Both the position numbers and the translations under genes were made by a program. Of a stretch of DNA of 64,000 nt, positions 6,041 to 51,305 are shown piece after piece (within the stretch, counting starts at the first letter, position 1; the number at the start of each line of letters is the position of its first letter). The stretch spans positions 8,017 to 72,016 of IMG/VR virus record IMGVR_UViG_3300026130_000003; one strand, given 5' to 3'. This DNA comes from a virus. The notes beneath the pieces were generated by a model. The model did not search any database and was not told the DNA's origin. It saw only the letters and a list, made by a program, of their open reading frames with translations.

Positions 6041-7008
6041 TTAGAACCTATCTGTCGTTCTTTTGCTGTTAGACCTGGGTTGCGCGGTGCATTAGTATAT
6101 ACTCGCTTGAAGAATCGTGAAACTTCCGGTGTGGGTTCACACAACTCTAGATCCATTCGTTGATCCAATAACTGTCCTAGTTTTACTGCTTCATTGTATA
6201 AGTTATCGTAATCCCATTTAACACCACTGCGTGAACAAAGTTCGTCACCTTCACCAATATTAGCCAACACGGTGTTTGTGAAGTAGTCACTAAACCATTC
6301 AAAGTCAGAAATGAATTCTGTTTTGAATTCACTGTTAAAGTTTACATCGTAACAACCCAATCGTGCCCCATAAATTGCCCACAAACCGTTCTCTACATCA
6401 GCGCCTACATTACACCAAGTAATAAGTCGTTCATAGTTCTTAGGCCATATCTTAGTTTTAAACTCACTTAGATGTACTCTGTACCCACGATCCAGAGACA
6501 TTTTTACACCTTCTCGGTATCCTGCACGGAATGCTTGGAATGGTGAACCAGAGTTAAAGATAACTGAGTACGTGTTGTTCATTTGAATGTATTCGAGATC
6601 CCAACAAAAGTCAATCTTCATTGACTCAGTTTCTGCCTCTTCGTGTGTTTTCATATTCAAAACAAGTTCACGAGGCCAGCATTTAATACCGCCATTACCA
6701 TAGACAAGTCCATTAACTGAGTTTTTAGCAGACCATGAGATAACAGATTTTGCCATATCAGTGTCTTCCGGAATTGATACTTCCAATGTAAAGAATGCAG
6801 GGTCCACGATGTTATCGCCGTCTATAGTAATAAAACGGTCAGTGGTTGACTGTCTTGCACATTCTTTATGTGCGTTATCGAAACCTTTGACTCCATCTAC
6901 TCGTTTAGCAAATGGGAATTTGTTCTTTAAATCTGCCCAATGTTCTTCTTTATTTGGTTCATCATATGAAATATAGAAGATATCCAAATCGCCTGTTCTA
7001 ACTATCAT
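6037..7008 (-). CDS. GT-A fold glycosyltransferase-like protein
   Basis: FYISYDEP, AHKECA, DxD motif FITIDGDNIV, YGNGGIKCW. Confidence 0.6.
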   Translation of the reverse strand: MIVRTGDLDIFYISYDEPNKEEHWADLKNKFPFAKRVDGVKGFDNAHKECARQSTTDRFITIDGDNIVDPAFFTLEVSIPEDTDMAKSVISWSAKNSVNGLVYGNGGIKCWPRELVLNMKTHEEAETESMKIDFCWDLEYIQMNNTYSVIFNSGSPFQAFRAGYREGVKMSLDRGYRVHLSEFKTKIWPKNYERLITWCNVGADVENGLWAIYGARLGCYDVNFNSEFKTEFISDFEWFSDYFTNTVLANIGEGDELCSRSGVKWDYDNLYNEAVKLGQLLDQRMDLELCEPTPEVSRFFKRVYTNAPRNPGLTAKERQIGSK

Positions 7009-45652: not shown

Positions 45653-46780
45653 ATGGAAGTTATTAAAAAATACATACCGCTATACAAACTAGACACCAAA
45701 GGCAAAACTCGTGTGTGGTATATGGAGTTAGGGCAAAACGGTGAAGAATATGGTTATCGTACCGTGGCAGGTATCAAAGACGGTAAAATGGTTACTTCTG
45801 AGTGGAGATTGTCTTCAGGTAAGAATCTAGGCCGCAGTAATGAAACTACACCCAGAGAGCAAGCAGAAAGCGAAATCAAATCCAATTATACGTCAAAACA
45901 AGATTCCGGTTACTTTGGTGATCAAACAATGATCAAAAACTTTGACAAGTTTATGCCAATGTTAGCGAATGATTACTCTAAACTAAAAAAGGGTCTAGAG
46001 TTCCCAGTAATTTCACAACCCAAACTAGATGGTATTCGCTGTCTTTCTCGTGCTAATGGTCTTTGGACTCGTGCTGGCAAAGAAATTACTAGTTGTCCGC
46101 ATCTTGAAGAATCATTGAAAGAAGTTTTTGATGCAATGCCAGGAATTATCATTGACGGTGAACTATACAATCACGAACTAAAAGATGACTTCAATAGTAT
46201 CACTTCTATGGTTCGCAAAACTAAACTAACAGAAGCAGATATTACCAAGTCAAAAGAACTTGTACAGTACCATGTTTATGACTTGTTTGATACTAACAAT
46301 CCCAACATGCCATTTACTGACCGTCAACAACTGTTGAGCGAAATCGTAAAAGATATAGAAGGTGTTGTAGTTGTAGAGACAACAAAAGTATTTTCCCAAG
46401 AAAAACTAGATGAACTATATGGTACTTACCTGACTGACGGTTTTGAAGGGCAAATGGTTCGCATTGATAGTGCATACGAAAACAAGCGTAGTAAATTCCT
46501 ACTCAAACGCAAAGAGTTTATCACAGATGAATTTACTGTAGTATCAGTAGAAGAAGGTCAAGGTAATTGGAGTGGACACATCAAACGCTTTGTTCTAAAT
46601 CTACCTGATGGAACACAATTCGGCGCTGGTGTTCGTGGTAACCAAGCAACGCTTAGAGAGTTGTTTGAATCAAATAATAAGCCAACATGGGCGACACTAC
46701 GATACTTCACACCTACACCTGATGGTATTCCACGATTCCCAGTAGTAGTTGATTGGGGAGTCGGAGAACGAAACGACTAA
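45653..46780 (+). CDS. ATP-dependent DNA ligase with an N-terminal WGR-like extension
   Basis: Motif I QPKLDGIR, III DGELY, IIIa YDL, IV EGQMVR, V LLKRK, VI PRFP. Confidence 0.92.
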   Translation: MEVIKKYIPLYKLDTKGKTRVWYMELGQNGEEYGYRTVAGIKDGKMVTSEWRLSSGKNLGRSNETTPREQAESEIKSNYTSKQDSGYFGDQTMIKNFDKFMPMLANDYSKLKKGLEFPVISQPKLDGIRCLSRANGLWTRAGKEITSCPHLEESLKEVFDAMPGIIIDGELYNHELKDDFNSITSMVRKTKLTEADITKSKELVQYHVYDLFDTNNPNMPFTDRQQLLSEIVKDIEGVVVVETTKVFSQEKLDELYGTYLTDGFEGQMVRIDSAYENKRSKFLLKRKEFITDEFTVVSVEEGQGNWSGHIKRFVLNLPDGTQFGAGVRGNQATLRELFESNNKPTWATLRYFTPTPDGIPRFPVVVDWGVGERND

Positions 46781-47295
46781 ACCCCATTAATAGAAGCAGA
46801 CTCCACTGAATCTCGGTGGAGTTCCCAAAACATATCTGCCCCACAGAATATCCAATCACCATGATTCTTACTGGTGTACACGATAGAATGTGGGGTTTTC
46901 CACCCTAGACTTGCTTGATACGCAACATACTTCCCTTTACGATTGAACTTCATAAACATAATGTTTAGGTCTTTGTCTTCGGCTACTTCCATACATTGGT
47001 CTATCCATTTTTCTAGTATGGGAATATAACCCGGCGATAGTAACGAGTGAAATTGAAAATCGGCGTAGAATTTACATTCAGAGTTAAAGTACTTCCAGTT
47101 ATCAGGCGGAATCAAATCCCCTTTAAATGAACGAATTTGTCCCTCGCTTAGTATCTCAGTTCTCTTTTGATTTTTACCTCCGATGAATGCACCGGAGTTA
47201 GGGACACGAATAAACGAACCATTATATAGTTCACTTAAGAATTTTGCTTGTTCTCGTTCATAACCAGAACCTTTGTTTTTTGATTTGTTAGACAT
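46777..47295 (-). CDS. PD-(D/E)xK Holliday junction resolvase-like nuclease
   Basis: Likely start MSNKSKNKGSGYERE at 47295. RVPNSGA, GDL, ECK. Confidence 0.75.
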   Translation of the reverse strand: MSNKSKNKGSGYEREQAKFLSELYNGSFIRVPNSGAFIGGKNQKRTEILSEGQIRSFKGDLIPPDNWKYFNSECKFYADFQFHSLLSPGYIPILEKWIDQCMEVAEDKDLNIMFMKFNRKGKYVAYQASLGWKTPHSIVYTSKNHGDWIFCGADMFWELHRDSVESASINGV

Positions 47296-47423
47296 TATCA
47301 CCATCCTATAGAGGTCTTTAACAAGACCTAAGCCCTCATAAAAACTCAAACTTCGTAAACTCAGTTTTCGTTTTTAATCGGTCTTTTCTCTGCCGAGGGC
47401 TATTAAGAGAATTATTGTGCTCT

Positions 47424-47431
47424 TATTTATA
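47424..47431 (-). promoter_or_regulatory. T4-type late promoter TATAAATA for the resolvase gene
   Basis: Exact T4 late consensus. Confidence 0.55.
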
Positions 47432-47434
47432 TCA

Positions 47435-47875
47435 TTACCAGGAGGAGCCACAATTGCCCCGTTGCCGGGGCAAATGGTTAACTCGGATATTACCGAGGTG
47501 TCACCTCTGTTTATGGGTTAGTCTCCAGATAGACGAGGTAGGTTGGCGATCCCCTCTTAACCCAGTACTTGCGACTTTCGTCCCAACGGCACCTTAAACA
47601 TATCTAAACAGACCAATATGAATAAAGCCGGCAGTGATTTTGTATTTCCTGCCATCAGTGTGTGCGTTCTCTGGTTTTTCACAGTTCATCGGCACGGTTA
47701 CTCTGGTATACATGCGGTTACATGTATTTTCCGCAAGAATAGGTAAGTATCCTTGCTCATTACAGACTATTTTGCAGATTTACGAGAAGCGTGGAAGCGC
47801 CTAACCTTCCTATTCTGACGGCAACACCATTACGATGGCAGTCTCAATCCCGGATACAATGTATCATCCAGTTCT
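47435..47875 (-). ncRNA. Candidate large, ornate non-coding RNA of unknown family
   Basis: No credible ORF. At least ten hand-identified stems, including long-range 8-9 bp helices. GNRA tetraloops and G-U pairs occur only in the minus-strand reading. Boundaries are approximate. Confidence 0.7.
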
Positions 47876-48005
47876 GCTTGTAAGTATAGTTCACTACATT
47901 TTAGATAGTTTTAGTTTTAAGACGCTATAAGACCTTGGTGGTCGGATTCTGAAGTCGGTTTTTATATAATAATATTCTGGATGTTTCCGTCGTTACTGAC
48001 GGGTA

Positions 48006-48239
48006 CTATATAATAGGCGTACCAGCCTTCTTGCTCATTTCAAAATTGTTCTCTATTATAGAGTTCAAGTGTTTGATATGAGTTACAGGCATTTCGTGGA
48101 TTTCAGAAATAGAAACCCCTCCACGCATGTACCAAGTTAATTGTAACAGGTTATAGTGTAACTTGTCAACCTGTTTTTCGTATTTTTCAATACGCTCCTG
48201 TATATCTTCCGTGCTGGCTGTTACGAGCCAGCGATGGAA
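48006..48239 (-). CDS. 77-aa -1-frame extension of the 48221..49072 gene (G-T-type tail assembly chaperone extension)
   Basis: Frame FHRWLVTASTEDIQERIEKYEKQVDKLHYNLLQLTWYMRGGVSISEIHEMPVTHIKHLNSIIENNFEMSKKAGTPII* is entered at slippery site A_AAT_TTT. No good start or RBS of its own near its 5' end. Confidence 0.7.
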   Translation of the reverse strand, partial: FHRWLVTASTEDIQERIEKYEKQVDKLHYNLLQLTWYMRGGVSISEIHEMPVTHIKHLNSIIENNFEMSKKAGTPII

Positions 48240-49072
48240 AAATTTATAGGATTTACCTCAATATTCACTTCGTCTACATTCCCGCATTCTGGGCATGTGA
48301 ACTTTAACAAGTTTGAATCATCAGGCTTCTTAGATAATTGTACAGCAATTTGGTTGATCTTGTCAACTACTTTTCCGGGAATATTGAACATAAATTCGTC
48401 AATAAATGCCTTGTCAGTCACTATTTCACCATCTTCGGTTTCTATTTTGTAGATTGCTTCTGTTAGAAGACTAACATTGTGTTGTACAATCTTATTGAAA
48501 CTTTGGTAAAATCGTTTTGCAAGTTCCATGTCACCATCTGGATCTTCGTCCGATACACTGCTTTCAATTTCTAGTAAAATCTTTTTACGCTCTATATCCA
48601 TAAGACTCAAACGAGTTACACTTTCAACTGTTGCAGGTGAGATATAAATTTTTATACCCTCATGTTCAACAACAGGTATCTCTTTAATATCCGGAAACCT
48701 ATTCATAAGTTGATTCAAATCAACTTTGTAATCTGTCACTGCGTCACATTCTGTACATTGATGCGTGTGCTCTATGTCCTTTCCGGAACTGGCATACTGT
48801 ATTGCTAGGAACAATGACTCCGCATCTATGTTACATAGTTTTCTTGGATTTGGAATCGAAGGCACACAACTTTTGATGACATTGATGAGAGCCTCACCGT
48901 TTAACAAAGCATCTGGATTCTGTAATGATATTTCATCTAGCGCAGTCATTGGTAAAATTGGCACTTCATCCAATATGGTCTTATCAATCTCTGGATTGAA
49001 TAAACCATTGGTTGGCAATGTAACGTACATTGCAGGTTTTCTGAAATACTTACTCAGTGGGTTGTTTGACAT
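48221..49072 (-). CDS. Baseplate hub assembly / tail assembly chaperone (gp26/gp51-like)
   Basis: YVTLPT, PMTALDE, LAIQYAS, two CxxC pairs (CTEC, CPEC). Divergent from the tape-measure-like gene. Confidence 0.7.
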   Translation of the reverse strand: MSNNPLSKYFRKPAMYVTLPTNGLFNPEIDKTILDEVPILPMTALDEISLQNPDALLNGEALINVIKSCVPSIPNPRKLCNIDAESLFLAIQYASSGKDIEHTHQCTECDAVTDYKVDLNQLMNRFPDIKEIPVVEHEGIKIYISPATVESVTRLSLMDIERKKILLEIESSVSDEDPDGDMELAKRFYQSFNKIVQHNVSLLTEAIYKIETEDGEIVTDKAFIDEFMFNIPGKVVDKINQIAVQLSKKPDDSNLLKFTCPECGNVDEVNIEVNPINFSIAGS

Positions 49073-49087
49073 TGATTTTTCCTAATT

Positions 49088-49134
49088 GATAAATACATTG
49101 TAAGCCGTAGTACGGCGTAGCGTTTCTATTTATA
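49088..49134. promoter_or_regulatory. Face-to-face late promoters (plus GATAAATA 49088-49095; minus TATAAATA 49127-49134) flanking the palindrome GCCGTA-G-TACGGC
   Basis: Motifs read directly. Confidence 0.55.
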
Positions 49135-49169
49135 CATGAAACCTGTAAACAACGAGAGATACGATAAAA

Positions 49170-51305
49170 ATGTCAGAATTTGATGGAGTAATTAAGGGGT
49201 TTGGAAAAGCGGGTCAGTTCCCTGGATGGGCGACCGACAAAGCAATGTTGTCTGTAGAGAAAGCAGTATCAAGGCAAGACAAACACTTTATGAACATTTC
49301 CAAACTGTTAATCCAGATTGCCAGAGGTGACAAAATAACACAAGGGCAATACAAATCCATGATGGATGAATTGCGTGGGATGCGCAGAGAGGATGAAAAG
49401 GCTCGCAAGCAAAATAAGCAGCAAAATGAGGATAATCAGAAGGATGACAGTAAATTTCAAAAAGAAAACATTTTCACACTGAAATTCTTGGGCGATATTA
49501 TGAAGAAACAACTAGACGCCCAAAAAGAAGGTATAAAAAGTGCAGAAGACCTGAACAAGCGTGTAGAAGAGTTAATCAAACAAGGTCATAGTGAAGCATC
49601 TGCAATGCGATTAGCAACAGCAGAAGACATGGGCGGTAAAATTGACTTTATTAAAGGTGTGGGCGGTAAGTTCGCCGCAGGTTTAACTGCTGTAGTAGGC
49701 ACAATAGCAGCCGCAGACTCGTTTATTATGGAAAACATTAATGAGCGATTAGATTTTTCTAGTGAAATAAGACAGTCAGGTCTGATGGTTGGTTTAGAAG
49801 ATGCTGAAGGTACCCTATCTGAATTTTCTTATGCTGTGAACAAATCAGGATTCTTGATGGGCGAAGCGGCAGCATTTGCGGACAAGTACTCAGAAGCAAT
49901 TGGCAGTCTGGGTATGTTAGATTCATTGAAATTAGTCAAAGACTTTGCATATGGATTGGATGGATCGTTAAATCTAATGAAAGAGTATGCTATGACATTC
50001 GGTCAAACTACTGTTATGACAGGTGAATACTTAGAAACTCTTAAGAACTTAGGCGCGTTAAACCAAATGAGTGAATCGCAACTAAGACAAGGTATGAACA
50101 ATTTCATGGATGCTGTTTCAGATACATCCAAGGTACTAAAAATATCAATGGAAGAATCAGCCGCTTTGATTAAAGAGACACTTGACGAAGATAGAACAAA
50201 GGTATCTTTGGGTATGATGGCAGCCAAAGGTGTTCCTATGGAACAAGTACAGGCTCTAAGTGATGCGATTAGTTCATCTACTATGTTCGGCGCAGGATCA
50301 GAAATGGGTAAAATGTTACAAACTCGTTTAGTAGCAGGAGATAGAGCACAATTCTTGGCTACCGAAGAAGGTAGAGCAATGATGGACAACCCTATCACTG
50401 CTAAACTATTTGAAACGATAGACCGCCTAGCCGTATCATATGAGTCAACTGGTGATCCTGATGCATTGAAAAACGCAATGTCTGAACTTGATGTGTCTTC
50501 TATTTTGGGTAACATGTCAGAAGTTGATAGACAACTATTGATGCGCGGTGAAGGCGGGGTGTCAGGTACACTGCTATCAGAATTAATGTCTATGTCAGAT
50601 AGATTTGACCAAATAGGTCAGGAAGCCCCACAAGTAACTGAAGAAGATTATCAAGCGGCATATTCACAAGATATGAGAAGTCGTAGATTAGGTCTAACAT
50701 TGGAACAGTCTATATCCGCAGGCTTGACAAAGGCGAACTTGGGAGAGAACTTAAAAGATTTGAACCAAGGTATGAATAAATTATTGACTGAACTTCAACC
50801 TAAAATGGATGCGTTGGCAGAAGCAATTGGTGGTAAGTTAGTAGGAGCGATTACTGGATTGCAGGCAACAATCACTGACTTTGCAGGTGATATGCTACGA
50901 GAATCTAATGCACAATCATTGATAGATGCCGATGACGGAAATACAAATGATGCCATAGGATACAATCCTAGTGAAAGTCGTATGTACGATTATTTTGTCA
51001 ATGATGCTGCAGGCGCCGCATTATGGGATATGAAGTCAGGTTTGTTGGCACAGTCAGGACTTGGAAATAAAGAAGCATACTTCAATGATGATTCCGCTAG
51101 AATGTTTGTAGACAGTCTTAAAATGCAAAGGGACAACATGAATTTATCTGATTCTGATTTTAAAGATGTTCTTACTCGACTACTAAAAGAAGCAAACAGT
51201 AATAAGATGGCGGTATCCGCAAATGCGCGTGATGCGACAAATGCACAGGAAACACAATTCCTTATTAATCGAATTAACGAATTGATAAAAACACTCAACG
51301 GATAG
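49170..51305 (+). CDS. Tape-measure-like protein
   Basis: 711 aa, rich in Ala/Gly/Met/Leu and helical throughout, with a hydrophobic stretch (FAAGLTAVVGTIAAA). Adjacent to the chaperone gene. Confidence 0.55.
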   Translation: MSEFDGVIKGFGKAGQFPGWATDKAMLSVEKAVSRQDKHFMNISKLLIQIARGDKITQGQYKSMMDELRGMRREDEKARKQNKQQNEDNQKDDSKFQKENIFTLKFLGDIMKKQLDAQKEGIKSAEDLNKRVEELIKQGHSEASAMRLATAEDMGGKIDFIKGVGGKFAAGLTAVVGTIAAADSFIMENINERLDFSSEIRQSGLMVGLEDAEGTLSEFSYAVNKSGFLMGEAAAFADKYSEAIGSLGMLDSLKLVKDFAYGLDGSLNLMKEYAMTFGQTTVMTGEYLETLKNLGALNQMSESQLRQGMNNFMDAVSDTSKVLKISMEESAALIKETLDEDRTKVSLGMMAAKGVPMEQVQALSDAISSSTMFGAGSEMGKMLQTRLVAGDRAQFLATEEGRAMMDNPITAKLFETIDRLAVSYESTGDPDALKNAMSELDVSSILGNMSEVDRQLLMRGEGGVSGTLLSELMSMSDRFDQIGQEAPQVTEEDYQAAYSQDMRSRRLGLTLEQSISAGLTKANLGENLKDLNQGMNKLLTELQPKMDALAEAIGGKLVGAITGLQATITDFAGDMLRESNAQSLIDADDGNTNDAIGYNPSESRMYDYFVNDAAGAALWDMKSGLLAQSGLGNKEAYFNDDSARMFVDSLKMQRDNMNLSDSDFKDVLTRLLKEANSNKMAVSANARDATNAQETQFLINRINELIKTLNG

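What the first reader, a model, noticed from the sequence alone, without database searches (positions are those of the whole stretch)
47435..47875. Large ornate non-coding RNA candidate between the tail-chaperone and resolvase genes
Seen: the only long ORF-free stretch in a very compact window, richer in G+C than other spacers. It folds by hand into nested domains on the minus strand. There are 5' hairpins CUGGAU/AUCCGG and GCCAU/AUGGU. Domain 1 is closed by the 9-bp UGCCGUCAG (47823-47815) / CUGAUGGCA (47658-47650) and contains AAUAGG/CCUAUU, GGCG/CGCU and AUACAUG/CAUGUAU. Domain 2 is closed by the 8-bp UCUGUUUA (47612-47605) / UAAACAGA (47513-47506) and contains GAC-GAAA-GUC plus a UGGGUUA/UAACCCA three-way junction (GAGG/CCUC, GUCU/AGAC). 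The CCAAC in the GAGG/CCUC loop can pseudoknot with upstream GUUGG. Then come CUCGG/CCGAG and UUGCCCCG-GCAA-CGGGGCAA (47473-47454). GNRA loops and G-U pairs work only on the minus strand. A C(U/UC)GG(A/U)..U motif recurs three times (CUGGAUGAU, CUCGGUAAU, CUGGUAAUG). It interrupts no gene and lacks the tmRNA, RNase P and intron signatures I know. Known: phages carry large structured RNAs of unknown function (GOLLD, ROOL). Inference: a possibly new class of large phage RNA (ribozyme, scaffold or RNP component), probably co-transcribed late with the chaperone gene, since no U-tailed terminator separates them. This is my best candidate for an undescribed system.
Basis: partly seen in the sequence, partly recalled or inferred. 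Interest (0 to 1): 0.88.

Follow-up and report, generated by a model that had tools for sequence, protein, structure and literature searches.

The report
Novel large structured RNA, marine jumbo-phages
A roughly 430-base, intricately knotted non-coding RNA gene that is conserved in a group of uncultured giant ocean phages and matches no catalogued RNA family; what it does is still unknown.

Summary
The finding holds. Window 47877-47451 (minus strand) encodes a ~430-nt structured RNA. Homologues occur once per genome in an uncultured clade of marine Rak2/Atu_ph07-like jumbo myoviruses: 76+4 IMG/VR loci and 45 metagenome loci. They always lie just downstream of the gp26-like hub gene and its -1-frame extension. 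On 35 distinct sequences, my 17-helix model (100 pairs, three pseudoknots) is 96.6% paired. 46 pairs change on both sides, against 31.2+-2.3 in shuffles (0/500) and 6-17 in slid controls. G-U outnumbers A-C 260:18, so the minus strand is the RNA strand.

The 9-bp "domain 1" closure and AAUAGG/CCUAUU are window-only.

Rfam 15 has no match. ARAGORN finds nothing here, although both tools detect tRNAs, a tmRNA and a manA motif elsewhere in a complete relative. Neither covariance model hits the three cultured relatives tested; the 3'-core pattern search found nothing in 185,579 prokaryote species genomes.

Sigma70-type promoter matches lie upstream, so late co-transcription with the chaperone is not favoured. 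Function is inferred only: probably a trans-acting folded RNA (RNP scaffold or ribozyme-like). No expression data could be obtained.

The parts
47878..47915 (-). 5' leader with three CUAAAA-type words (relatives: 3-4 CUAAUA words). It is unknown whether it is transcribed as part of the RNA.
   Evidence: Sequence. The repeated words are seen in all lineages in the alignments. Their function is unexplained.
47772..47882 (-). 5' domain. P1 GCAG/CUGC (47877-47874 / 47777-47774) encloses the P2 hairpin (47865-47853) and P3 CGGGA/UCUCG (47852-47848 / 47787-47783, invariant). P3 in turn encloses P4 (47843-47815) and P5 GGAAG/CUUCC (47810-47793).
   Evidence: Covariance model R2 matches 47772-47882(-) at 67.2 bits, E 1.5e-16. 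P2, P4 and P5 have 4, 5 and 3 pairs with changes on both sides; P1 and P3 have none. P1 shows two compensatory changes in the window row by eye (GCAG/CUGC against GUGG/CCAC), which one search did not count because that row is gapped there. Pairings verified.
47733..47756 (-). Window-specific insertion hairpin GCAAG/CUUGC, absent from all aligned relatives.
   Evidence: Gap in the other 38 of 39 rows of A2, columns about 175-199. Pairing verified.
47708..47727 (-). P6 hairpin AUACAUG/CAUGUAU. Its loop is UAACCG here and C[U/C]CU[A/G]AAGG in relatives.
   Evidence: 7 of 10 pairs change on both sides. Loop variants listed.
47525..47706 (-). PK2: joiner CCAGA (47706-47702) pairs with the loop of P12, UCUGG (47529-47525).
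   Evidence: Column pair 238/420 is U-A in 25 and C-G in 10 of 35 distinct sequences. In 66 distinct copies it is U-A 49, C-G 9, U-G 8 and never unpaired.
47629..47695 (-). P7 (GUGC/GCAC, 47695-47692 / 47665-47662; variable, absent in some lineages) and P8 (UGGCAG/CUGCCG, 47654-47649 / 47634-47629).
   Evidence: P8 has 3 of 5 pairs with changes on both sides; P7 has 2 of 5. Verified.
47592..47627 (-). PA: long helix CUUUA..CAUAU / AUAUG..UAAGG with a 2x2 internal loop. Its apical loop carries the 5' strand of PK3.
   Evidence: 3 of 6 counted pairs change on both sides. The sequence differs completely between lineages while pairing is kept.
47504..47629 (-). 3' core, which is the most conserved part. 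It contains PK3 UCUGUUUA/UAAACAGA (47612-47605 / 47513-47506) and PK1 GUUGG/CCAAC (47587-47583 / 47546-47542). It also contains the GAC-GAAA-GUC hairpin (47582-47573) and a three-way junction. The junction is formed by P10 UGGGUUA/UAACCCA (47564-47558 / 47520-47514), P11 GAGG/CCUC (47556-47553 / 47538-47535) and P12 GUCU/AGAC (47534-47531 / 47524-47521).
   Evidence: Covariance model R1 matches 47504-47629(-) at 109.8 bits, E 6.4e-27. PK1's variable pair is G-C in 45 and A-U in 21 of 66 distinct copies, never mismatched. PK3 has 3, P10 4, P11 2 and P12 3 pairs with changes on both sides.
47482..47497 (-). P14 hairpin CUCGG-UAAUAU-CCGAG. It holds the internal copy of the lineage-specific repeated word (GGUAAU, 47494-47489).
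47451..47476 (-). P13: 3' hairpin with a GCAA loop. The stem sequence UUGCCC/GGGCAA is conserved. No U-tract follows it.
   Evidence: 10 pairs, 2 of them with changes on both sides, including the outer C-G to U-A change. The terminator scans do not call it.
47430..47450 (-). 3' tail with the second copy of the repeated word (GGUAAU, 47439-47434). The true 3' end of the RNA is unknown.
48140..48169 (-). Sigma70-like promoter match TTGACA-18-TACAAT (11 of 12, with TG), inside the coding sequence of the hub extension. It is a candidate promoter for the RNA in this lineage.
   Evidence: The same match is in L002. Its -10 is lost in lineages that have an intergenic promoter instead. Consensus match only.

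Best explanation
Window 47877-47451 (minus strand) is a gene for a ~430-nt non-coding RNA of a family that has not been described. It is a single-copy core gene of an uncultured clade of marine jumbo myoviruses. Their nearest cultured kin are Atu_ph07, Phosso and Rak2-like phages, and the host is probably an alphaproteobacterium.

Shown: the RNA folds into two parts.
- A 5' domain: P1 closes a junction holding P2 and the invariant helix P3, which in turn holds P4 and P5.
- A larger 3' body (P6 to P13) tied together by three long-range pairings. PK1 joins a strand upstream of the GAAA hairpin to the loop of P11. PK2 joins a joiner after P6 to the loop of P12. PK3 joins the apical loop of helix PA to the strand after the three-way junction.

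Inferred: it has its own sigma70-type promoter and so is made by host RNA polymerase, probably early and independently of the hub mRNA. It acts as a folded molecule in trans. The invariant joiners (CGGGAUUGAG, CUUCUCGU, GUGCCGUUG, GCAAUAC, GGGAAUCG) and the invariant GAAA loop would form a compact core that binds a partner or catalyses a reaction.

My odds:
- Real structured RNA family, new to Rfam: ~0.95.
- Independent transcription unit: ~0.65.
- Trans-acting scaffold, ribonucleoprotein component or ribozyme rather than a cis-regulator: ~0.55.
- No specific biochemical activity can be named from the data.

The confidence figure given for this explanation (0.6) is for the whole statement, including the inferred parts.
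For: Conservation and distribution:
- A 20-base core pattern finds 76 IMG/VR stretches with 41 distinct cores.
- A looser pattern adds 4 true loci out of 7 new ones.
- 45 of the 80 metagenome loci returned are confirmed by model R1, all at 113 bits or more.
- There is one copy in each of 5 of 5 virus records searched, including a complete 342,607-bp genome with terminal repeats.

Structure:
- RNAalifold predicts 80 pairs, 32 with compensatory changes.
- My 100-pair model is 96.6% paired, against 87.1+-0.3 in shuffles.
- 46 pairs change on both sides, against 31.2+-2.3 in shuffles (0 of 500 reach it) and 6-17 when partners are slid by 1-3 columns.
- PK1's variable pair is Watson-Crick in 66 of 66 distinct copies.

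Strand: 260 G-U cells against 18 A-C cells, giving 96.6% paired on the minus strand and 89.6% on the other. The MFE z-score is -2.45 on minus and -0.18 on plus.

Not coding: stops of all three kinds in all frames and no conserved ORF.

Not a known family: 0 Rfam matches at gathering over the window and only noise at E up to 10. No ARAGORN call. The same tools do find 10 tRNAs, an alpha-type permuted tmRNA (122.6 bits) and a manA motif elsewhere in the complete relative.

Own promoter: TTGACA-17-TAGTAT with TG right after the extension's stop in L016, overlapping a terminator-like hairpin. TTGACA-18-TACAAT with TG in the window and L002. The two promoter types are distributed in a complementary way among lineages.

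Not tied to the downstream gene: that gene is a PDDEXK nuclease in some lineages, a 145-aa GIY-YIG-like protein in others, and two other genes in L031. A second promoter match lies between the RNA and that gene.
Against: - No transcript evidence of any kind. No RNA run was listed, so the ends, timing and abundance are unknown.
- The promoters are consensus matches. Their number in each scanned region is not clearly above the shuffle expectation (2 against 2.8 in the window, 5 against 2.9 in L016, 7 against 4.9 in L002).
- All members belong to one phage clade, and no intermediate-scoring relatives were found. The sequences are therefore related, and shuffle statistics overstate independence.
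- P1 and P3 show no counted covariation.
- The 5' domain is not universal. L031's record has the 3' core but no R2 match.
- The RNA always follows the hub extension. In the window no terminator separates them, so a 3'-UTR role is not excluded.
- The co-varying direct repeat around P13 and the repeated leader words are unexplained by this reading.
- Nothing indicates what the RNA binds or catalyses.
Confidence: 0.6

Rival explanations
1. A cis-acting element of an mRNA. Either it is a giant structured 3' UTR of the hub/extension mRNA that stabilises or terminates it. Or it is a riboswitch-like leader whose 3' part (P14, P13 and the repeated word) is an expression platform controlling read-through into the downstream nuclease gene.
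For: - The RNA lies downstream of the hub extension in 69 of 76 loci. The other 7 loci have less than 300 nt of upstream DNA.
- In the window no terminator-like site lies between the extension and the RNA.
- The word shared by P14 and the tail, which also resembles the 3' strand of P13, would allow alternative pairings with the 5' strand of P13 in some lineages.
- A conserved hairpin pair lies further downstream, just before the next gene.
Against: - Promoter matches lie upstream of the RNA, and a separate one lies downstream of it.
- A terminator-like hairpin follows the extension in L016.
- The downstream gene is not constant.
- The alternative pairing with P13 is not conserved in the L016-type lineages (my reading).
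- At ~400 nt with three pseudoknots, it is far larger than riboswitch aptamers I know of (recalled).
- P13 has no U-tract.
Confidence: 0.2
2. A DNA-level element, such as a replication origin, packaging site or protein-binding array. It sits at the boundary between the structural and recombination modules. By position this resembles T4 oriF near genes 26, 25 and uvsY (recalled).
For: - Position between the tail/baseplate genes and the resolvase and ligase genes.
- Repeated short words in the leader, and palindromic sequences in P13 and in the downstream hairpin.
Against: - Compensatory changes keep 17 helices, including three long-range ones.
- G-U outnumbers A-C 260 to 18, which a duplex DNA site would not produce.
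- Only one strand folds better than shuffles.
- The region is richer, not poorer, in G+C than its flanks, unlike an unwinding element.
Confidence: 0.03
3. A very divergent member of a known large RNA class: group I intron, RNase P RNA, tmRNA, GOLLD or ROOL.
For: It shares their size, pseudoknots, a GNRA loop and conserved joiners. A GIY-YIG-like gene with its own promoter and a hairpin before its start follows the RNA in many lineages. That is reminiscent of the T4 td intron with I-TevI (recalled).
Against: - No Rfam match even at E up to 10 with lax filters.
- It interrupts no gene. The extension ORF ends 60-110 nt before P1, and the next gene has its own start.
- The helix order does not reproduce the P3/P7 topology of group I introns (my comparison, from recall).
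- A real tmRNA is found elsewhere in a relative's genome.
- No tRNA lies within the 64-kb window.
Confidence: 0.03
4. A protein-coding gene hidden by a non-standard genetic code or by frameshifts.
For: A real -1 frameshift operates immediately upstream, in the hub gene.
Against: - TAA, TAG and TGA all occur in each of the three frames of the RNA strand. There are 6-10 stops per frame in 466 nt.
- The longest open frames (40-72 codons) lie at different places in different members.
- Substitutions follow helices rather than codon positions.
Confidence: 0.01

Closest known systems
GOLLD and ROOL RNAs (large phage- or prophage-associated structured RNAs of unknown function; Rfam families)
   Same: Several hundred nucleotides long, many helices plus pseudoknots supported by covariation, carried by phages, and no known biochemical function. 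A preprint whose abstract I saw (10.1101/2024.12.08.627333, listing) reports cryo-EM structures of GOLLD and ROOL as RNA-only complexes. Long-range covarying pairs in such RNAs can therefore be intermolecular, which cannot be excluded for PK1-PK3 here.
   Different: No sequence or structure match to either Rfam model. Not next to tRNA genes (their usual neighbourhood, recalled): no tRNA in the 64-kb window. In the complete relative the RNA lies at about 186 kb, while the tRNAs and tmRNA lie at about 5, 37, 45, 241, 281 and 342 kb. It is restricted to one clade of marine jumbo phages and is absent from prokaryote genomes.
OLE and raiA RNAs (large bacterial structured RNAs acting as ribonucleoprotein components; abstracts seen)
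   Same: Large, highly conserved joiners between covarying helices. Such RNAs are thought to work as folded scaffolds with protein partners.
   Different: Those are bacterial chromosomal genes with known protein partners or phenotypes. This one is phage-only, has no Rfam match and has no identified partner.
phi29 pRNA (phage-encoded structural RNA of the packaging motor; recalled)
   Same: A phage-encoded, trans-acting folded RNA made from its own promoter and working through loop-loop pairings. It is encoded beside morphogenesis genes.
   Different: pRNA is about 120-174 nt with a much simpler fold. There is no evidence here for a virion or motor role, and adjacency to tail genes is the only link.
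Group I intron with a free-standing GIY-YIG gene (T4 td / I-TevI arrangement; recalled)
   Same: A large pseudoknotted RNA followed in many lineages by a GIY-YIG-like gene that has its own promoter match and a hairpin before its start.
   Different: No exons, no Rfam Intron_gpI match, and a different helix topology. The GIY-YIG gene is missing in the window's lineage.

Membership tests
Any Rfam 15 family (4227 covariance models) | Score at or above the family's gathering threshold | tested here: not met
   0 matches over the whole window. At E up to 10 over 47100-48400 there are only 5 noise matches. None lies on the RNA strand inside 47451-47877. The homologous place in the complete relative (L290) also gets no match.
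GOLLD / ROOL | Match to the family model; usual neighbourhood of tRNA genes (recalled) | tested here: not met
   No model match. No tRNA in the window. The nearest tRNA in the complete relative is more than 50 kb away.
Group I intron | Interrupts a gene (flanking exons that join into one ORF) | tested here: not met
   The extension ORF stops before the RNA. The next gene has its own start and differs between lineages.
Group I intron | Conserved core (P3-P7 pseudoknot, P4-P6) recognised by the Rfam model | tested here: not met
   No Intron_gpI match at E up to 10.
tmRNA | tRNA-like domain plus tag reading frame, as detected by ARAGORN or Rfam | tested here: not met
   ARAGORN finds none in the window. 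Both tools find a genuine permuted alpha-type tmRNA elsewhere in the relative's genome, so the method works in this clade.
RNase P RNA | Match to any RNase P model (conserved P4 region) | tested here: not met
   No match.
Riboswitch / cis-regulatory leader | Constant position in the 5' UTR of one gene family | tested here: not met
   The downstream gene is PDDEXK, GIY-YIG-like or other. A promoter match separates the RNA from it.
Riboswitch / cis-regulatory leader | Expression platform (terminator or RBS-sequestering helix with an alternative pairing) | tested here: inconclusive
   P13 has no U-tract. The repeated word could allow alternative pairing in some lineages only.
Independent structured ncRNA gene (general) | Covariation that preserves helices, on one strand only | tested here: met
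Independent structured ncRNA gene (general) | Own promoter and terminator | tested here: inconclusive
   Strong sigma70 consensus matches lie upstream, but no canonical terminator was found and no start site has been mapped.
Independent structured ncRNA gene (general) | A discrete transcript | not testable with these tools
G/GT-type -1 programmed frameshift (for the neighbouring hub gene) | Slippery X_XXY_YYZ heptamer in the zero frame just before the stop, with a conserved ORF in the -1 frame | tested here: met
   A_AAT_TTT lies 10-46 nt before the hub stop in 14 of 14 lineages, and the -1 frame encodes a conserved ~70-aa tail. T_TTT_TTC with the same -1 tail (WYMRGG motif) is present in Phosso, Atu_ph07 and RaK2. 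The protein product was not tested.

The most novel reading that the evidence does not exclude
The RNA is a new class of large functional RNA that marine jumbo phages make early from a host-type promoter. It would be either a ribozyme or, like ROOL and GOLLD, a self-assembling RNA-only particle in which some of the covarying 'pseudoknots' (for example the CUAG/CUAG or CCAG/CUGG contact) are intermolecular. It would serve host take-over or counter-defence in alphaproteobacterial hosts.
Probability: 0.25. Interest if true: 0.9.

Novelty: categorically new. Interest (0 to 1): 0.78.

Why it matters
Large RNAs with intricate, pseudoknotted folds are rare, and the well-understood ones (ribosome, RNase P, self-splicing introns) do fundamental chemistry. 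Each new class has opened a line of work, as with OLE, GOLLD, ROOL and raiA.

This one comes with unusually clean comparative support: more than 60 distinct sequences and three covarying long-range contacts. It has a defined genomic place in a clade of ~340-kb phages that appear to infect marine alphaproteobacteria, and it has no homologue in any catalogued family or cellular genome searched.

It is small enough (~390-430 nt) for direct in-vitro folding, probing and cryo-EM without a cultured host. Its structure and any self-cleavage, ligand binding or multimerisation can therefore be tested immediately. If it is a phage early RNA acting on the host, it would add an RNA player to jumbo-phage take-over biology.

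Tried and rejected
- Expression: the look-up of sequencing runs (kind rna, window 46700-49200) listed no RNA holder. That is no evidence either way, and read laying was therefore not used.
- DNA similarity to cultured phages: none, for the window version or for a common variant.
- Cultured relatives found through the hub protein at ~30% identity: R1 and R2 find nothing in the whole genomes of Phosso, Atu_ph07 and RaK2. The best was 18.5 bits, E 0.27.
- Prokaryote genomes: 56 pattern matches, about the number expected by chance. None is confirmed by R1; the best were 18.9 and 16.7 bits.
Rejected in favour of the local, covarying P4 and P8.
- A 5'-3' end pairing (CAUA/UGUG) proposed by RNAalifold: doubtful. 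Column 520 covaries with column 495 as part of P13, not with column 40.
- The alternative GUUG/CAAU extension of the GAAA hairpin: invariant, so untestable. PK1 is preferred because its fifth pair covaries.
- Kissing between the P6 loop and the invariant downstream hairpin. The window changes both sides (UAAC/GUUA). The L094/L186 lineage changes only the hairpin, and the L018 type gives a mismatch. Inconsistent, so dropped.
- Search for a conserved 'guide' complementary to the repeated word: no position conserved across lineages.
- CTAATA words as the late promoter: rejected. The word upstream of the hub and tape-measure genes is TATTTAT[C/A], and CTAATA is not enriched in the window.
- Hammerhead reading of CUGAUGA in P14: no GAAA or stem III in place (by eye) and no Rfam match.
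- In one search my PDDEXK query was translated out of frame by mistake. Its hits were ignored, and downstream genes were read instead.
- Literature: three full-text searches found no description of this RNA or of the hub frameshift. I read passages only of PMC10690425, 10.64898/2026.09.22.753630 and PMC9024508. PMC10690425 catalogues 8,495 short candidate structured RNAs from IMG/VR (mean 67 nt). Its supplementary tables, which I could not open, may list fragments of this RNA.
Full report
WHAT IS THERE

On the minus strand this lies between a gp26-like baseplate-hub/chaperone gene (48221-49072) and a PDDEXK nuclease gene. The hub gene matches Pfam T4_baseplate at 6.9e-17 and PHROG 'baseplate hub'. 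The nuclease is ORF 46777-47349, whose likely start is the ATG at 47295; it matches PDDEXK_15 at 5.4e-23.

The stretch is G+C-richer than its flanks (0.465-0.47 against 0.36-0.385). As a single sequence it folds better than shuffles only on the minus strand (z -2.45 against -0.18).

It is not coding. TAA, TAG and TGA all occur in each frame of the RNA strand, and the longest open frame sits at different places in different relatives.

THE PHAGE

The window belongs to a 72-kb virus record estimated at 20% complete. There is no nucleotide match in the cultured-phage collection. By hub protein the nearest cultured relatives, at ~30% identity, are the jumbo myoviruses Phosso (Sinorhizobium), Atu_ph07 (Agrobacterium) and the Rak2-like phages.

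A complete relative, G001, is 342,607 bp with terminal repeats. It carries 10 tRNAs, a permuted alpha-proteobacterial-type tmRNA (122.6 bits) and a manA motif. Together with the hosts of the nearest cultured kin, the tmRNA type suggests an alphaproteobacterial host; this is an inference. Several confirmed metagenome records carry 'marine' or 'TARA' in the names the tool printed.

RELATIVES OF THE RNA

- The hub protein retrieved 10 related IMG/VR loci with the same gene order. The gap is conserved in patches.
- A 20-base pattern from the most conserved patch found 76 IMG/VR stretches with 41 distinct cores.
- A looser 19-base pattern added 7 loci, of which covariance model R1 confirmed 4.
- The same pattern gave 56 stretches in one genome each of 185,579 prokaryote species, about the chance expectation. 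None was confirmed.
- In metagenomes it gave at least 119 stretches. Of the 80 loci returned, 45 were confirmed, all at 113 bits or more, with nothing at intermediate scores.
- The RNA is single-copy in 5 of 5 virus records searched.
- In 69 of 76 IMG/VR loci it lies 310-430 nt downstream of the hub gene's extension. The other 7 loci are cut off upstream.
- The gene downstream is not constant. It is PDDEXK in the window and some lineages, a 145-aa GIY-YIG-like protein in many, and two other genes before PDDEXK in L031.

STRUCTURE

I aligned 39 full-length copies, 35 of them distinct (A2).

RNAalifold predicts 80 pairs, 32 with compensatory changes.

From that output and inspection I wrote a 17-helix, 100-pair model with three pseudoknots, then had it counted:
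- 96.6% of cells are paired, against 87.1+-0.3 in shuffles.
- 46 pairs change on both sides, against 31.2+-2.3 in shuffles (0 of 500 reach it).
- When the 3' partners are slid by 1-3 columns, 6-17 pairs change on both sides and 35-43% of cells are paired.

The sequences are related, so the shuffle figures are not probabilities. The slid controls and the many independent switches between close relatives are the stronger argument.

G-U cells outnumber A-C cells 260 to 18, so the minus strand is the RNA.

In window coordinates (all verified):
- P1: 47877-47874 / 47777-47774
- P2: 47865-47853
- P3 (CGGGA/UCUCG, invariant): 47852-47848 / 47787-47783
- P4: 47843-47815
- P5: 47810-47793
- A window-only insertion hairpin: 47756-47733
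- P6: 47727-47708
- P7: 47695-47662
- P8: 47654-47629
- PA: 47627-47592
- The GAAA hairpin: 47582-47573
- P10: 47564-47558 / 47520-47514
- P11: 47556-47553 / 47538-47535
- P12: 47534-47531 / 47524-47521
- P14: 47497-47482
- P13: 47476-47451

The long-range contacts:
- PK1 (47587-47583 with 47546-47542). Its variable pair is G-C in 45 and A-U in 21 of 66 distinct copies, never mismatched.
- PK2 (47706-47702 with 47529-47525). The switch is CUAG/CUAG to CCAG/CUGG.
- PK3 (47612-47605 with 47513-47506). Three of its pairs change on both sides.

Between the helices lie invariant strands: CGGGAUUGAG, CUUCUCGU, GUGCCGUUG, GCAAUAC and GGGAAUCG.

Two covariance models summarise the two halves. R2 (5' domain) hits window 47772-47882 at 67 bits. 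R1 (3' core) hits 47504-47629 at 110 bits. R2 accompanies R1 in 12 of 12 tested metagenome members that have upstream DNA. It is missing from L031's record, which has a different 5' region. The 3' body is therefore the constant part.

Correct:
- the strand and the ends
- P6
- the closure of 'domain 2', which is really a loop-to-tail pseudoknot
- the GAAA hairpin
- the three-way junction
- the CCAAC/GUUGG pseudoknot
- the two 3' hairpins

Not conserved:
- the 9-bp closure of 'domain 1'
- AAUAGG/CCUAUU
- GGCG/CGCU

Missed:
- P1
- P3
- P5
- P8
- PA
- PK2

TRANSCRIPTION SIGNALS (consensus matches only)

- In L016-type lineages, TTGACA-17-TAGTAT with TG follows the extension's stop at once and overlaps a terminator-like hairpin.
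- L017- and L065-type lineages have similar matches there, seen by eye.
- The window, L002 and their kin lack that promoter. They keep TTGACA-18-TACAAT with TG inside the extension's coding sequence (48169-48140).
- That internal -10 is lost where the intergenic promoter exists.
- The word upstream of the hub and tape-measure genes, TATTTAT[C/A], which I take as the late-promoter candidate, is not found before the RNA.
- P13 is not followed by a U-tract, so the 3' end is unknown.
- A further promoter match (TTGACT-17-TATAAT in L002) lies between the RNA and the next gene.

I therefore read the RNA as its own transcription unit driven by host polymerase, probably early. This is inference.

COMPARISON WITH KNOWN FAMILIES

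Rfam 15 gives no match at gathering scores over the window. At E up to 10 it gives nothing on the RNA strand inside the element. ARAGORN finds nothing. Both tools work in this clade, since they find tRNAs, a tmRNA and manA in G001.

The RNA interrupts no gene, so it is not an intron. It is not next to tRNAs, unlike many GOLLD and ROOL loci (recalled).

What it resembles is the general kind of large, ornate, phage-borne RNAs of unknown function. It is not a member of any of their families.

Three literature searches and passages of three papers gave no description of it. A 2023 catalogue of short candidate structured RNAs from IMG/VR (PMC10690425) may contain fragments, but its supplements were closed.

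MECHANISM

Shown: a conserved, strand-specific, multi-pseudoknotted fold, single-copy and clade-wide.

Inferred: independent early transcription, and action in trans as a folded scaffold, ribonucleoprotein component or ribozyme.

The size, the knotted core, the invariant joiners and the invariant GNRA loop are what catalytic or partner-binding RNAs look like. Nothing identifies the partner or the reaction.

The main rival is a cis-acting UTR or leader, at ~0.2. DNA-element, known-family and coding readings are each at or below ~0.03.

UNEXPLAINED FEATURES

- A 6-9-nt word in the P14 region recurs just after P13. The word differs between lineages (GGUAAU here; GGGACAGA, GGCAAGU, GAACAAGU, UGACAAG, UAUCAAG elsewhere) while the two copies stay alike. 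The longest shared word is 7 nt or more in 35 of 43 distinct pairs, against 243 of 1520 cross-lineage pairs and 51 of 860 shuffled tails. No conserved complementary site was found.
- The 5' leader carries 3-4 CUAAUA words (CUAAAA in the window).

VERDICT

This is a real and apparently undescribed class of large structured RNA from marine jumbo phages. The structure is well supported and the function is open.

Noticed in passing
window 48006-48260 (minus strand); L089-L091: The hub (gp26-like) gene has a conserved -1 programmed-frameshift signal. The slippery heptamer A_AAT_TTT lies in the zero frame 10-46 nt before the stop in 14 of 14 lineages and is followed by a GCUGGC...GCCAGC hairpin. The -1 frame encodes a conserved ~70-aa tail with a WYMRGG motif. 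Phosso, Atu_ph07 and RaK2 have T_TTT_TTC with the same -1 tail. In Phosso the tail is annotated as a separate CDS. So 48220-48006 is coding, not part of the non-coding gap. One literature search found no description.
   Followed up: yes
window 47300-47410 (minus strand); L002 5578-5690: A second conserved element lies between the RNA and the next gene. It has a sigma70-like promoter match (TTGACT-17-TATAAT in L002), a long covarying hairpin with a conserved apical loop, and a nearly invariant palindromic hairpin AGGTCTTTAGACCT. The window version of that hairpin is GGTCTTGTTAAAGACC. In L002 the hairpin is scored terminator-like. The element could be a ~75-nt small RNA, an attenuating leader or a DNA operator. 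It precedes different genes in different lineages.
   Followed up: partly
window 48140-48169 (minus strand): A sigma70-like promoter match (11 of 12, with TG) is embedded in the coding sequence of the hub extension. It is conserved at the nucleotide level in lineages that lack an intergenic promoter, and degraded where one exists.
   Followed up: partly
L016 8572-9009 and equivalents (L018, L019, L025, L030): A 145-aa GIY-YIG-like protein (MSEWTYNN...GFVYLITNL..KYIGKK) is inserted between the RNA locus and the following genes in many lineages, but not in the window. It looks like a free-standing homing endonuclease. The motif was recognised by eye and not scanned against Pfam.
   Followed up: no
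L089 (Sinorhizobium phage Phosso) 5733-6746: A 1-kb ORF-free, G+C-richer gap lies upstream of Phosso's Holliday-junction resolvase. It folds better than shuffles on both strands (z -3.4 and -2.3). It has a sub-threshold match to the EGFOA RNA model (29 bits, gathering 37.7, E 0.005) on the minus strand at 6167-6296. It is not homologous to the RNA studied here (no R1 or R2 match) and may be another large phage RNA.
   Followed up: partly
G001 (complete 342,607-bp relative), loci L281-L298: The relative's genome encodes 10 tRNAs, a permuted alpha-proteobacterial-type tmRNA (L295 1167-1530) and a manA RNA motif (L295 4861-5059). The tmRNA type hints at an alphaproteobacterial host.
   Followed up: partly
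window 49073-49169 and equivalents in L016, L018, L030, L039: A conserved word TATTTAT[C/A] lies 15-25 nt upstream of the start codons of the divergent hub and tape-measure genes. It is a candidate late-promoter motif of this clade.
   Followed up: no
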